Program-made: the position numbers and the translations under genes
Notes under the pieces: generated by a model
Databases searched by the model: none
Told to the model about the DNA's origin: nothing
What the model saw: only the letters and a program-made list of their open reading frames with translations
Shown: positions 5,670-61,044 of the stretch, in pieces
Numbering within the stretch: the first letter of the stretch is position 1
Layout of the letters: the number at the start of each line of letters is the position of its first letter
NCBI GenBank assembly: GCA_951406725.2
Contig: OX597816.1
Span: 31,372,001 to 31,436,000, forward strand
Reading direction: 5' to 3'
Length of the DNA stretch: 64,000 nucleotides
DNA from: Octopus vulgaris
Lineage: Eukaryota

Positions 5670-6053
5670 ACTCATCATCACTGATCTAATAAATGGAAAC
5701 GTTATTGTTCCCAAATCTCTCAATGAAAGATATACAGTAGAAGTATTTTAAGGTAAAGATTATTTACCAAACTTATGTAGCACCGCTCTCTCAGCCAAAT
5801 AGATGTTATGTGCCCATGAAGGGAGACAACCCTGAAACCGCACGATCCACAGATACTGCTTTGTTCTGTGTGTCGTATTGCCAACTGGAGACTATGTCTC
5901 CTGGGGCTAAACAACTGTAGCATTCGTCCCGATCGGGATTGCCACATTATATTGGCAAATATTGTTTACTTTAAAATACTACTACTGTATATCTTTCGTT
6001 GAGAGATTTAGGAACAATAATGATTCTATTTAATAGACAAGTGGTTGTGTGTC
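5670..6053. repeat. Foldback element: ~110-bp imperfect inverted arms around a ~155-bp spacer
   Basis: ttattgttcccaaatctctcaatgaaagatatacagtagaagtattttaaggtaaa (from 5702) is the reverse complement of tttactttaaaatactactactgtatatctttcgttgagagatttaggaacaataa (5965-6020), with few mismatches. Confidence 0.85.
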
Positions 6054-6479
6054 ACTTAGAAAATTATATATATTTTCGAACGAGTGTTAGGCTGCACTGT
6101 CTTAGACAAAGATTTATTCTGTACTGATAAGCAAATAATTTTTACACAGACACACACAGACACAGACACACACACACACACCCCCCACACCCCCACACGC
6201 ATACATACATATTTATATATACTTACATATGTGAATGTGTGTATGCATATGAATGTCTATATACTGCATATATTTTTCATAAAAAAATATCCTTTCTTAA
6301 TTCTGTACAGGGGGCAGTAATTTTCAAGGGGGTGGAAGGCGATTACTTCGACCCCAGCTCTAACCAGATACTTATTTTTATCGACACGAAAATGATGAAA
6401 ACCAAAGTACGCTTTTTGAACTCAAAACATCAAGACAAATGAAATACTGCTAAGCATTTTGTCTGCAGCTCTAATGATT

Positions 6480-6830
6480 TGGTTTGTTTGTTTGTTCCTT
6501 CTCGAGCCATGCCTGGCTTATAAGGGCTTATAAGGGCCAATGTTTCCAGAGGTGAATTATTCAAACCCCAAAGATTCCCTCTCAACACATGGCTATGATG
6601 CTCCCCCACTACTTCTGTTCGTGATCAGAGATGCACATATCGTCAGCCACTAAGGGACATGCTCAACTGGTTAAGGTCAAACAACTGACAAGCAAATCTG
6701 TGGTATTGAGCAGAATATTTGCTGTAGCCCATCTTTATACCAAGACAAAACAATGTACATGATAACACTTCCAATCAGTTAAGATCAGATGCCATGAGAG
6801 CCACTGCCTGGTACTGCATCAGGGCATTTA
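6480..6830 (-). mobile_element. Interspersed retroposon-like repeat with (AAAC)n tail
   Basis: Bounded by (gttt)n and (att)n runs; its tail gagccatgcctggcttataagggc loosely resembles the tail of the SINE at 30129. Confidence 0.4.
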
Positions 6831-6851
6831 TTATTATTATTATTATTATTC

Positions 6852-7050
6852 TGGCAGAAACGTTAGCACGCTGGGCAAAATGCTTAGCAGTATTTTGTCT
6901 GTCTTTATGTTCTCAGTTCAAATTCCACCGAGGTTGACTTTACCTTTCATCGTTTCGGGGTCGATTAAATAAGTACCAGTTACGCACTGAGGTTGATGTA
7001 GTCGACTTAATCTCTTCCCCCAAATTTGAGGCCTTGTGTTTTTTACTGAA
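6852..7050 (+). mobile_element. tRNA-derived SINE (family A)
   Basis: B-box gttcaaattcc; colinear similarity to 3063-3263. Confidence 0.75.
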
Positions 7051-56890: not shown

Positions 56891-57350
56891 GTTCTTGTGG
56901 GAAAGTTTTGACCATTTTATAGTGTCATTGTGAGTGTAGTGGCGGGAAGGGATATAAAGATAGCACAAGAGGGTGATGAATGGTGAGAATGTGAGAGAGA
57001 GCATGTGTGTGCATGTGTGTGGTTGTGTGTGTGTGCGTTTTTGTATCTGAAAGATTTGTTAAAGAAAAAGAAGGAAAGGAAGAAAATGGTGAGAGGGAAG
57101 AAGAAAAAATTGTTTTGCTGTTTTGTTTTCGTAGTTGGCCAGGATGTTTACTCTAAGGGGGATCTTGTGGAAATTGTTTTGACCATTTTATAGTGTAATT
57201 GAGTGTTTAGTGCTTGCGAGGCATATAAGATATTACAAGAGGGTAATGGATGGGGAGAAAGTGAGAGAGAGCATATGTGTGTGTGCGTGTGTATGTGTTT
57301 GTATCTGAAAGATGTGTTAAAGAAAAAGACGGCAAGAAGGAAGAGAGAGA
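56891..57350 (+). repeat. Diverged tandem duplication, period ~270 bp
   Basis: ttttgaccattttatagtgt...caagagggt...ttgtatctgaaagat.tgttaaagaaaaaga occurs at ~56906 and ~57177. Confidence 0.85.
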
Positions 57351-57780
57351 GAAAGAAGACCATAACTTGTATTTCCTTTTTATCACTGTCTTGTGAGTGT
57401 GTGTCTGTGTGTGTTTATGTGCGCTGCTTTGTGGTTCATGTGTTTGTGTCTTTGTATCTGAAATAGGTGCTAAGGAGGAATGGTCAATTTGTTAAGAGTA
57501 ACCAGTCATTGGCTATTAGGAATGGTCAAGTGTGCCACTTTTGTTTATATTTTTGCAACTGTAAATGGTTTTTGGTTTTTAGAAATTGGCCATTTCAAAA
57601 AAGAAGTCTTGATTTCTTTTCCTTATTGTTTTGTGAAGGAGTGTGTGTATGTGTGTATGTGTGTGTGTGTTTGTGTGTGTACAGGTGCCTGTGAATCTGG
57701 AAGGGGTGTCGTTGGAGGAGGGAAGAAAGAAGAAAAAAAGGAAGAGGAAATAACTGTTTTGATATTTATACCAACATTCA

Positions 57781-58187
57781 GTTCTTTGAATCCAATGTTT
57801 GATTCCTGTGCTTACATGGGATGGAAAAACTTCGTGAAACAATAGCATCCAGAAATTTTGAACAATAAAAGTTTTAGAGGATGAAGACTTCGAATGAACA
57901 CACGACACCAGAGTGGACGTACGGAAGTAAACAATAGACGAATACGAACATATAGCCCCGTTAGGCCAAGACGAAATGTAATGGGTAAATTTCACATCAG
58001 TGTTAGCCAATAGAATTCATCGTGGCCTAACAGTCCTAAATGTATGTCTTGTCGATTGTTTACTTCCGTCCGTCTACTATGGTGATTTTCGTTCATTCGA
58101 ATCCCCAACACTCCATAAATTTTATATTTTTAGAATTTGAGGATGCTGCTGACTTATGTCGTTTTCCTGTCTTGTCGTTCAAAGAAC
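57781..58187. repeat. Imperfect long inverted repeat centred near 57995
   Basis: Nested pairs: gttaggcca/tggcctaac, acggaagtaaacaat/attgtttacttccgt, ttcgaatgaac/gttcattcgaa, agcatcc/ggatgct, gttctttgaa/ttcaaagaac. Confidence 0.8.
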
Positions 58188-61044
58188 GAAACAGGGAATA
58201 AAATCACAGTCGACAACTGATGAGTGGTTATAGTTCTATTGGTATTTTGCCCCATACTTATCCGTTGTGTAATTACGTATTTTTTATTCGTTGGTGATGT
58301 CCTGGTCTTAATGTGTATTTTTTAATATATATATATATATATATATATATATATATATAATTAATGTGTGTGTGTGTGTGTGTGTGTGTGTGTGTGTGTG
58401 TGTGTGTGTGTGTGTGTGTGTATGGGAAATCCAAAGGAACAATTACAATGTAGCCAAATGTTGCTTAAGGAGATAATCCCGGGATAAGTCTTATGTATTA
58501 GAAAATATTGAAATATAAAAAGGATACGAACAATCGGGAAATGGTAGAAATGGATTATGAGATCAAATGAAATGGGAACTGGATCTCGATTTAGTTGAAA
58601 TCAAATTTCTGAAAGCGATTGAGGAGAAATTTAAAGTCAATTGAGAATCCAATTTATTCAAGCATGCTATGAATTCATGAAATATTTAAAAAAACCTTCC
58701 TGAATTTCAAAATTAACCTTCATCGAATAAATGCTTCCTACTTGCTGTTCAATTTAGTAGGTGACGATTCGTGATTTACGATTATATATTATGGATTAAT
58801 TCAATGATTAAGTGTTTAGAATTTTAACAAATAGTTTCATTACTCTAACAAGAGAAGGGATATCTTAGGGACAAATTGCAACAACGGTGAATCTTTTTAC
58901 ATACAATCGATAACGATCGAACCTCTTATAGAAAAAAAAAACAGGAAAAAAATAAAATGAGAAATATGACAACCCATTGTGCTTTTCATATATTCTCTAT
59001 CAAGGGACAATGCCTATAGAGATTGCTATATGTCTCTCTTAAATATATTCTCCGGATTACAAATGTATAAAGACGGACATGAGATAACTATAATCTAACG
59101 TGCCAGAACGGTTACTAAAAACCGTGCTCCAGATGCATATGCTTCCGTATTATTAAGGAAACTGGTGAGAAATTATTTAAAGACAAGATATTTGTCTTCA
59201 TTTGTGCCAAACATACTCAATTCTCGGACGACAGCTATTAGACAGTCGGCAAAAATGTCTAATAACTGATAACAAAAATTGCCCCGAATGAGAAAAATGT
59301 TTTATTGAATTTACCTAGCCTGCAAAATTATGCATTTTTCTTTATATGACCTTACAATAATTCTCACACATTTGGTCAGAATTATTCGCGTCTTAACCAC
59401 CAACCTTATGCGTGAAATAGGCTGTATATAGTATCCAAAGTGCTTGTTTACTTTTCTGCAAAACTGGGCACTCTTACACACATATTACATCTCTCTCTAA
59501 AGTATGAAACCTCTTCATTTACTTACAGATTTGGAGTATAATGTAACAAAAGTTACATGCATGCAGTGCACGTTTCTCATAAAAAATATCATATCATTAG
59601 TCAAACATTCAACTAGATTTTGAATTTTTACAGCAATAATCTATTTTGCTGTATGGCATCAGTTAACAAACAACTAATATGAACCTACAGTGGTTTAATG
59701 AAAGCAGCTTTTTCTGCCTTAAGAAACGAATACAAATGAGACTATTACTTATTGGGCTCCCGAGAATCTTGTGACGAGCAGGAAACAAGAAAAAGAATGA
59801 CTAATTTTGTTCCAATAAGATGTATTTCACATTAATATAACCTAGTAGCTTGTATTGTTTACATTTTTTCGCCAAAAATACATGTCTAAGGAATATTAGA
59901 ATTATGTAATTCTTCTATATTTCTAGTTGGAATTTACCATCATACCGTTGCTAACACTAAAAGCTGCGTTAGCAACAAAAAAGACACAATAACGATCTTA
60001 TTAATTTTGAGCAGGAATATATCTGCATTTGCTTTACGAATATTATTTTTATATTTTAACAGAGGAATAAAGGAAAACAGTCGTCATGACATCACTTGCA
60101 TCTGTAAACTTACATCAAATAATTTGCAACCGATAGACTTAATTTATACACATACAATAATTATGTTTATTTAATAGATATTTCTAGCAGAAATATTCTG
60201 TATTTCATTAAACAAAAAATGTCTTTTTCTTTTGAGTATGAATGACACTTCCACTGCTGTATTCATTGAGACATTATATAACAGTACTCTTTACCTAATC
60301 AGGTAAAGTTAAATACTAAATATTTATTGGCCATTTAGTGTATGCACAATTATACTCAGGTGAAATAAATTGAAATGAATTTATCTCACATGAACGTGTA
60401 TTGGTACAGACAAGCTTAAATATTTGAAATACGCACTTCGGTAATTTTCTGTTCCTTCTGCATTTTAAAACACTGGATATTAATTTAAATTTAAAGTTTA
60501 ATTTAAAGTTGGGTGGCTTTTAAATATTTTCTTGGCAATGATAGGCAGTAACATTTTTATTCCCTGAAAGGAAACAGTGTTCAGCTATTGCTAATTTTTC
60601 TAAATTTATTGAGCCATACGTCGTATGTTAGATACAATAACTGTGAGAACATAACATATCTAATAAAACATCATTTTTTATTCTTATCCGATAACAATAT
60701 TTTAATAAATTGTTTACACATTCACAATTCACATTCAATCAGCACTTATCATTTATTATTTTGCATTACAATATATTATGAATAAAGATTATAATATATG
60801 TTTAATCCATTGCATATTTGAGTTTAATTAAAGTAGATTCTTTTACCATATCCCCCGAGGAATTAATAGAATTTACTTAAATAATAAGATATATTCTTTA
60901 CGTTATATACCCTTGAATATATTGGATATTAAAAACAAGCATTCTTTTAGAGGGAATGAATATTTACAAAACATATATGAAAGTATAGAATTTCAATTCT
61001 TCGTAAAGATTTACCAACTGTTGGCTTTTTTATTTTTTCGCTAA

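What the first reader, a model, noticed from the sequence alone, without database searches (positions are those of the whole stretch)
5670..58230. Recurring architecture: unrelated non-coding repeat families built as divergent inverted pairs or tandems around hammerhead ribozyme cores
Seen: at least five apparently unrelated repeats carry CUGANGA/stem II/GAAA plus a palindromic 4-10-nt stem III (10939/11233, 12677/13202, 21706, 41598, 50893). More decayed or partial cases occur at 5810, 17123, 53511 and 56712. In the foldbacks the polarity is consistent, with the left arm motif on the minus strand and the right arm motif on the plus strand. Established: minimal type I hammerheads with palindromic stem III occur in Penelope pseudo-LTRs and retrozymes and are thought to cleave as dimers; PLE insertions often carry an inverted 5' pLTR. 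Inference: this genome hosts several ORF-less, ribozyme-bearing families mobilised by PLE RT/GIY-YIG (four PLE remnants lie in this window) and inserted as foldbacks. A repeat library could mislabel these as MITEs.
Basis: partly seen in the sequence, partly recalled or inferred. Interest (0 to 1): 0.75.

Follow-up and report, generated by a model that had tools for sequence, protein, structure and literature searches.

The report
Hammerhead repeats with Penelope insertion footprint
Several common repeat families in this animal genome carry a hammerhead ribozyme motif (predicted to cut its own RNA, untested) and sit as back-to-back pairs in the pattern known for Penelope-like jumping genes, which likely copied them; one family is the end repeat of such a gene and begins with a tRNA-derived stretch that may be a polymerase III promoter.

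Summary
Mostly real, and largely an instance of known Penelope-like element (PLE) biology. Four of the five main sites belong to high-copy families whose consensus keeps a full minimal hammerhead; 41598 fails and is an antisense piece of a tRNA-type SINE. In 140 genomic loci of five families, inverted arms were head-to-head 66 times and tail-to-tail never. 43 of 45 classifiable pairs had the 3' tail on one arm only, and 7-15-bp target duplications were common. This is the published PLE footprint, not a MITE. Families at 12677/13202, 21706, 50893 and 5810 are ORF-less 353-516-nt permuted units (retrozyme-like); no coding parent was found. The 10939/11233 family is not ORF-less: it is the pLTR and ORF start of an ~835-aa RT-endonuclease PLE, preceded by a tRNA-Arg-like head where most copies begin. 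The insertion footprint on ORF-less units and the tRNA head were not found in print, but this scan already noted both on other pieces of this genome. Cleavage, circular RNA and Pol III transcription are untested.

The parts
5649..5782 (-). Family F left (inverted, 5'-truncated) arm, without the ribozyme
5775..6122 (+). Family F right arm (357-nt unit, related to C); decayed hammerhead at about 5808-5850; family core is the CCGA variant
10882..11053 (-). Family A left arm, no tail; hammerhead core starts at 10979; encodes PLE ORF N-terminal residues
11054..11163 (.). Degenerate (TTG/TTA)n and (AAT)n spacers; both tRNA-like heads are deleted in this copy except a 15-nt remnant at 11146-11160 (seen by eye)
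11164..11368 (+). Family A right arm with tail = pLTR and ORF start of a coding PLE; hammerhead core at 11238 (G8 mutated); 12-bp target duplication with one mismatch at 10871-10882 and 11370-11381
12542..13415 (+). Family B, 1.7 tandem units (516-nt unit) between (TA)n tracts; hammerheads at 12682 (decayed) and 13207
17090..17325 (-). Family J monomer; family consensus has a type I hammerhead on this strand; this copy has lost the GAAA box (bounds approximate)
21565..21580 (-). 16-nt inverted fragment of family D, possible relic of a left arm (seen by eye)
21604..21888 (+). Family D, 5'-truncated single arm (477-nt unit); hammerhead core at 21712
41515..41990 (-). tRNA-type SINE with (GAA)n tail; the motif at 41598 is antisense to it and fails the descriptor; not part of the system
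50621..50872 (-). Family C left arm with tail; ribozyme cut off at C3
50868..51099 (+). Family C right arm without tail (353-nt unit); hammerhead core at 50893; 5-nt overlap at the junction; inserted in (TA)n
53454..53614 (+). Family S, decayed dispersed monomer; hammerhead-shaped with U at core position 6; no foldbacks seen in 20 loci
543..1078 (-). PLE coding remnant (RT/thumb region)
18447..19076 (+). PLE coding remnant (linker and endonuclease) of a family with open frames of 778 aa elsewhere in the genome
39138..40556 (-). PLE coding remnant (RT and endonuclease region)

Best explanation
These repeats are head-to-head and partial-tandem insertions whose footprint matches Penelope-like retroelements, so they were likely copied from RNA by a PLE reverse transcriptase-endonuclease: family A is the end repeat of a coding PLE, and B, C, D and F are ORF-less retrozyme-like units likely moved in trans. 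Shown: intact hammerhead consensuses, 5'-only inversion, two 3' end sites about 40-80 nt apart with the longer end on one arm only, mostly 1-7-nt junction overlaps, 7-15-bp target duplications, copies longer than one unit, and a tRNA-derived head 35 nt after the stop codon of A's parent. Inferred: the enzyme nicks both target strands 7-15 nt apart; each nick primes cDNA, one at the outer and one at the inner start site; the two cDNA ends anneal by microhomology to give the foldback. The template of B, C, D and F would be an uncleaved multimer or a circle made by dimeric hammerhead cleavage and ligation. The head of A would act as a Pol III promoter, or else as a strong stop for the RT. The two ribozymes of a foldback lie on opposite strands, so a single transcript carries only one of them in sense; the foldback is a by-product of insertion, not a ribozyme dimer.
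For: Consensus cores intact. Compensatory double changes in stems I, II and III between family C and its relative in L210; unrelated stem sequences in A, B, C, D and J. 66 divergent and 0 convergent in 140 loci; without 5 window copies and 2 duplicate loci, 61 of 133. Tail on exactly one arm in 43 of 45 classifiable pairs, none on both (Fisher P about 1e-10; end classes set after seeing the data). Shared flank word of 7 nt or more in 20 of 35 pairs outside (TA)n against 5.5% in controls. Copies longer than one unit: B 10/30, C 13/30, D 11/30, F 3/20. Units fold as stable circles, z -3.7 to -8.3 on 25 shuffles. A is continuous with an RT-endonuclease ORF at both ends (RVT_1 E 2.4e-10). The same structure is described for PLEs in PMC3846280 and PMC8557442; both-strand priming and two RT start sites were shown in vitro in PMC11167929.
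Against: No coding parent sharing sequence with B, C, D, F, J or S at its 3' end among 160 PLE-derived loci checked, a small and biased sample. Loci are the best 40 hits to one query, so rates of foldback and of intact cores are biased. No window copy has a fully intact motif, and copies are 3-18% diverged from consensus, so these are fossils. Unselected left-arm 5' ends do not pile up at the cleavage site, so cleavage left no mark on insertion; in the anole PLE it was dispensable in vitro. F and S cores deviate from the canonical box. Pfam did not call the GIY-YIG domain, which was read by eye. Head-started A copies have no diagnostic differences from ORF-linked copies.
Confidence: 0.8

Rival explanations
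1. All families are only 5'-truncated ends of autonomous PLEs whose coding copies I did not sample; there are no non-autonomous retrozymes.
For: True for family A. PMC4209133 reads most dispersed minimal hammerheads this way. Only top-ranked copies were seen.
Against: In B, C, D and F the sequence upstream of the unit is the tail of the previous unit, not an ORF; 37 of 110 loci run past one full unit, and none joins a PLE ORF. The longest stop-free stretch in a unit is 71-93 codons.
Confidence: 0.12
2. The foldbacks arise by self-priming (fold-back of a cDNA or an antisense template at a small palindrome) rather than by priming at two nicks, as proposed for rotifer PLEs.
For: PMC3846280 argues for self-priming on an antisense template. 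A has a small palindrome at the head where many pairs join.
Against: The two arms usually start at different 5' positions, and either may be the longer. The tail is on the left or the right arm about equally (19 against 24), which fits two separately primed cDNAs.
Confidence: 0.25
3. The repeats are MITEs or other DNA-transposon derivatives, and the hammerhead words are chance.
For: Long inverted arms; the plain motif is not enriched in the window.
Against: The outer ends are not equivalent, junctions vary from copy to copy, TSDs are 7-15 bp and variable, units form direct partial tandems, and consensus cores are intact with covarying stems.
Confidence: 0.02
4. Short A copies are a true SINE made from their own Pol III transcript, rather than PLE cDNAs that stall at the tRNA-like head.
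For: Head 50/77 columns identical to this genome's tRNA-Arg(TCT), 0/500 shuffles reach the score. Among arm-selected copies, 19 of 19 that reach the head's 5' end start at -17 to +8; among head-selected copies 26 stop there and 5 run on. No TTTT run in the parent consensus ORF (0 against 3.0 in synonymous shuffles, P 0.025).
Against: No diagnostic bases separate 56 head-started from 18 ORF-linked copies. A palindrome at that position could stall or redirect the RT. ARAGORN makes no call, and the Rfam tRNA score is 13.3 bits, below the 29-bit cut-off. Other PLE ORFs are also somewhat low in TTTT (47 against 71).
Confidence: 0.4

Closest known systems
EN+ Penelope-like elements (Adineta Pen2a, PMC3846280; anole Poseidon PAc, PMC11167929; overview in PMC8557442)
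   Same: ORF of about 840 aa; pLTR that includes the first codons and a minimal hammerhead; adjacent inverted 5'-truncated copy; tail on one end; 8-10-bp TSDs; two RT start sites.
   Different: A's parent has a tRNA-derived head and an (AAT)n tract in its pLTR, and most copies start at that head. Pen2a is described with TATA/Inr-like motifs. B, C, D and F have no ORF.
Metazoan non-LTR retrozymes (PMC7229834; bioRxiv 10.64898/2026.07.22.740005)
   Same: Non-coding units of a few hundred nt with one type I hammerhead each, tandem junctions, TSDs longer than 4 bp, strongly self-paired predicted circles; PLE mobilisation already proposed.
   Different: Here mostly dispersed 0.5-1.7-unit copies with 5' inversions and a one-sided tail, features I did not see reported for retrozymes in the passages read. 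No pLTR homology to a sampled coding PLE. RNA and cleavage untested.
Minimal PLE hammerheads of Schistosoma mansoni and other metazoans (PMC4209133)
   Same: Palindromic stem III, extra base before stem II, many sequence families per genome, and pairs 100-700 bp apart on opposite strands already noted.
   Different: That paper read them as truncated PLEs and did not separate ORF-less permuted units.
Schistosome SINE-like elements with hammerheads (as reviewed in PMC6765202)
   Same: A Pol III-type promoter followed by a hammerhead in a short repeat.
   Different: Those occur as tandem multimers, and the review passages read name no mobilising partner; here the same sequence is the terminal repeat of a coding PLE.

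Membership tests
EN+ PLE (parent of A) | Single ORF with RT | tested here: met
   about 835-aa family ORF; RVT_1 E 2.4e-10; 12 longer relatives elsewhere, 10 with PF00078
EN+ PLE (parent of A) | GIY-YIG endonuclease | tested here: inconclusive
   C-terminal motif pattern read by eye and recalled as Penelope/Poseidon type; no Pfam call
EN+ PLE (parent of A) | pLTR with hammerhead overlapping the ORF start | tested here: met
   arm found 5' of the ORF in L256 and L260 and 3' in many copies
EN+ PLE insertion pattern (A, B, C, D, F) | Inverted 5'-truncated copy at the 5' end | tested here: met
   66 divergent, 0 convergent, 140 loci
EN+ PLE insertion pattern (A, B, C, D, F) | Optional tail at one end | tested here: met
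   43 of 45 classifiable pairs
EN+ PLE insertion pattern (A, B, C, D, F) | Variable TSD | tested here: met
   20 of 35 pairs outside (TA)n against 5.5% control; 29 of 64 pairs set aside as TA-rich
EN+ PLE (parent of A) | RT phylogeny within a named PLE clade | not tested
   no tree built; clade name is recalled
Non-LTR retrozyme (B, C, D, F) | Non-coding short unit with one type I hammerhead | tested here: met
   units 516, 353, 477 and 357 nt; strict core in B, C, D; F only with one mismatch
Non-LTR retrozyme (B, C, D, F) | Tandem units with two complete ribozymes | tested here: inconclusive
   partial tandems common; two ribozymes in tandem seen in a few loci such as L060, L210 and the window B copy; no long arrays in the sample
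Non-LTR retrozyme (B, C, D, F) | Linear and circular unit-length RNA | not testable with these tools
   available raw runs appear to come from a related organism that lacks close C copies
Minimal type I hammerhead | Self-cleavage, as a dimer | not testable with these tools
   stem III strands form self-duplexes of -1.7 to -15 kcal/mol; no assay
tRNA-derived SINE (short A copies) | tRNA-derived head with A and B boxes | tested here: met
   below the Rfam cut-off, no ARAGORN call
tRNA-derived SINE (short A copies) | Lineage separate from the autonomous partner | tested here: not met
   no diagnostic position between 56 and 18 copies
tRNA-derived SINE (short A copies) | Pol III transcription | not testable with these tools
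   unstranded RNA-seq shows no discrete start
MITE | Equivalent terminal inverted repeats, fixed interior, fixed short TSD | tested here: not met

The most novel reading that the evidence does not exclude
A coding Penelope-like retrotransposon has taken a tRNA-derived Pol III promoter into its terminal repeat, and it drives both the full element and a short ribozyme-bearing SINE-like RNA. The same enzyme class copies unrelated circular retrozyme RNAs by priming the two cut target strands at two different start sites, which fixes the head-to-head, one-tailed foldback.
Probability: 0.3. Interest if true: 0.78.

Novelty: new variant of a known kind. Interest (0 to 1): 0.5.

Why it matters
Who copies animal retrozymes is an open question; the case for PLEs in the papers read rests on co-occurrence and pLTR homology. 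Here ORF-less units share a detailed insertion footprint with a coding PLE in the same genome, and open PLE reading frames of 778 aa exist there, so the link can be tested in vitro. The strict one-arm-only tail constrains models of how PLEs make inverted insertions. A Pol III promoter inside a coding PLE would be unusual. In practice, these thousands of foldbacks should be annotated as PLE-system repeats, not MITEs.

Tried and rejected
Rfam scan of the window: microsatellite-driven miRNA hits, no hammerhead in the rows shown. The repeat finder was swamped by microsatellites. Window-level motif counts were not above chance. E and K were rejected as hammerhead families. Single window copies fold variably: A and D stable, B, C and E not. 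Parent search for B, C, D, F, J and S among 160 PLE-derived loci found none; the protein panel also held non-PLE frames, whose hits I disregarded. The test for a separate SINE lineage of A was negative. TTTT depletion is weak support only. RNA: no RNA holder listed. Three raw RNA runs from one study of a probably related organism gave abundant two-strand A reads, 71-76% running on into unlike sequence, with no pile-up at the head or the cleavage site, and few, partial C-like reads: inconclusive. The protein Atlas gave no result, and PMC5785218 (Lunse et al. 2017) is not held, so core variants in F and S could not be compared with tested variants.
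Full report
Setting. The window lies in a 2.8-Gb, microsatellite-rich animal genome held as G000. I checked each named site, fetched genomic relatives, built family consensuses in scripts and compared the insertion structures. Searches return only the best 40 DNA candidates, so all samples are ranked by likeness to one query, and candidate counts are not copy numbers.

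Observation. By themselves they prove little. The plain motif occurs 7 times against 4.2 in shuffles, and 17 of 100 shuffles reach 7. No window copy passes a strict descriptor requiring core, stem I of 4 bp or more, stem II of 3 bp or more and a palindromic stem III; one passes with a single core mismatch. The families carry the evidence. A (10939/11233), B (12677/13202), C (50893) and D (21706) have 1816-3168 first-look candidates. Their consensuses have the full core, with stem III palindromes of 4, 6, 8 and 12 nt, and 14-24 of 30 copies per family still pass. A relative of C in L210 differs by compensatory double changes in stems I, II and III. E (41598) passes in 0 of 25 copies, has U at position 3 in 22 of 25, lies antisense in a tRNA-type SINE ending in (GAA)n and forms no foldbacks. 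It does keep an 8-bp stem-I-like helix, so a decayed relic is not excluded. F (5810) is related to C and has a CCGA core. J (17123) is a true hammerhead family on the minus strand, with 3 of 14 other loci palindromic. S (53511) has U at position 6 and no foldbacks in 20 loci. K (56712) lacks the core.

Architecture. In 140 loci of A, B, C, D and F, an inverted copy lay at the 5' side 66 times and at the 3' side never. Removing the 5 window copies and 2 loci fetched twice leaves 61 of 133. Each family has two clusters of 3' ends about 40-80 nt apart. In 45 pairs where both ends could be classed, 43 had one long and one short end, 2 had two short ends and none had two long ends; 21 pairs could not be classed, and the classes were drawn after seeing the data. 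Junctions in B, C and D mostly overlap by 1-7 nt. Outside (TA)n tracts, 20 of 35 foldbacks share a flank word of 7-15 nt against 5.5% of mismatched controls; 29 of 64 were set aside as TA-rich. This is the structure described for PLEs: an inverted 5'-truncated copy, an optional tail on one end, and 8-10-bp TSDs (PMC3846280, passages; PMC8557442, passages). Opposite-strand hammerhead pairs 100-700 bp apart were noted in 2014 (PMC4209133, parts 1-2 of 4). It is not a MITE pattern.

B, C, D and F. These are circularly permuted units of 516, 353, 477 and 357 nt, in which the sequence upstream of a unit is the tail of the previous one. 37 of 110 loci run past one unit. No unit has a stop-free stretch over 93 codons and none joins a PLE ORF in the sample. 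No sampled PLE 3' end matches them among 160 PLE-derived loci; those PLE families carry their own, different hammerheads. The units fold as unusually stable circles (z -3.7 to -8.3, 25 shuffles), as reported for retrozymes (PMC7229834, outline and first third of Results). Unselected left-arm 5' ends are scattered and do not sit at the cleavage site, so the template was uncut or re-ligated.

Family A. Three RT hits had head and arm just downstream, and the intervening DNA is one collinear coding region. Thirty further loci give an ORF of about 835 aa, with RT and a C-terminal endonuclease motif read by eye, for which Pfam made no call. The arm encodes the ORF's first residues, the ribozyme lies inside those codons, and two copies have the arm 5' of the ORF. 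About 35 nt after the stop codon comes a 72-nt head with A- and B-box-like motifs, then (AAT)n, then the arm. The head is 50 of 77 columns identical to this genome's tRNA-Arg(TCT), the best of 35 tRNA sequences of eight isotypes, and 0 of 500 shuffles reach that score. Rfam gives tRNA as best hit at 13.3 bits, under the 29-bit cut-off (no hit for another copy), and ARAGORN makes no call. 29 of 30 head-selected loci have the arm downstream, one of them only its first 42 nt. Of 42 arm-selected arm copies, 18 lack a head, 5 start inside it, 19 start within -17 to +8 of its first base and none goes further. Of 33 head-selected copies, 26 start there, 5 run into the ORF side and 2 had no linked head. 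Head-started and ORF-linked copies show no diagnostic differences (56 against 18), so a separate SINE lineage is not shown. The ORF has no TTTT run (P 0.025 against synonymous shuffles), whereas an open ORF of another PLE family has 17 against 17.5 expected. This is weak support for Pol III transcription, since other PLE fragments are also somewhat low. The window copy has lost both heads.

Mechanism. Most likely a PLE RT-endonuclease nicks both strands 7-15 nt apart, primes one cDNA at the outer and one at the inner start site, and the two cDNA ends join by microhomology. The anole PLE cuts and extends both strands, has two start sites that bound the tail, and is predicted to be a dimer; its ribozyme was dispensable for insertion in vitro (PMC11167929, parts 1-2 of 4). 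The footprint is shown here; the enzyme and the order of steps are inferred. Self-priming on an antisense template (PMC3846280) remains a rival.

What is known. PLEs were proposed as mobilisers of animal retrozymes (PMC7761336, passages). A 2026 preprint supports this by co-occurrence and pLTR homology (10.64898/2026.07.22.740005, parts 1-3 of 5; supplements not seen). Pol III repeats with hammerheads are known in schistosomes (PMC6765202, passages). I found no paper on the PLE footprint in ORF-less units (searches, listings only beyond the papers named) or on a tRNA-derived pLTR. Subscription papers and Repbase entries are not covered. Earlier notes of this scan report both points on other pieces of this genome; I saw them after reaching my reading, and they are not independent evidence.

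Verdict. The finding is real, mostly explained by known PLE biology, and wrong on A being ORF-less and on two sites. Its value lies in the footprint shared by coding and non-coding families and in the tRNA-headed pLTR. Interest 0.5; new variant of a known kind.

Noticed in passing
window 58164-58230 (+), beside foldback 57844-58147: Hammerhead parts in the non-circularly permuted S-G-C order (stems I 6 bp, II 2 bp, III 7 bp); 2 of 100 shuffles give such a hit. The order is defined in PMC10085705 (passages); earlier scan notes describe it in this genome.
   Followed up: partly
window 54321-54560 (-) and foldback 55125-55478: A further repeat family with the same S-G-C arrangement in decayed form (read by eye; does not pass the descriptor), also inserted as a divergent foldback.
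   Followed up: partly
window 33659-34024 (+) and 36753-37118 (-): Two inverted copies of an abundant repeat with Helitron-like ends (recalled pattern) that shares about 63 nt with the 3' part of family C.
   Followed up: partly
window 56700-57830: Family K (1283 candidates), with internal direct repeats; a possible hammerhead variant with a U3-A8 core on the minus strand near 56850-56890 (seen by eye, weak stems).
   Followed up: partly
L436:1371-3704 (-): Open 778-aa PLE reading frame of the family of window 18447-19076 (14389 first-look candidates); its 3' end has a type I hammerhead with a long stem II.
   Followed up: partly
window 21740-21830, family D: A second GAAA-plus-palindrome word downstream of the ribozyme, followed by a 9-nt stretch complementary to the stem I 5' strand and C3; it could form an alternative, inactive fold.
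   Followed up: no
window 33321-33623 (+) and 62280-62594 (-): A transposase fragment (Pfam Transposase_1, E 0.0085) and a fragment resembling a Helitron helicase (recalled; no Pfam hit).
   Followed up: no
window 43233-43434 and 16905-16953: AT-rich palindromes without a hammerhead motif; 43233-43434 had no relative in about 1 Mb of fetched loci.
   Followed up: no
window 23039-23791, 26820-27118, 34617-35028, 50172-50524, 61040-61440: Copies of another abundant SINE-like repeat with an internal (TA)n tract.
   Followed up: no
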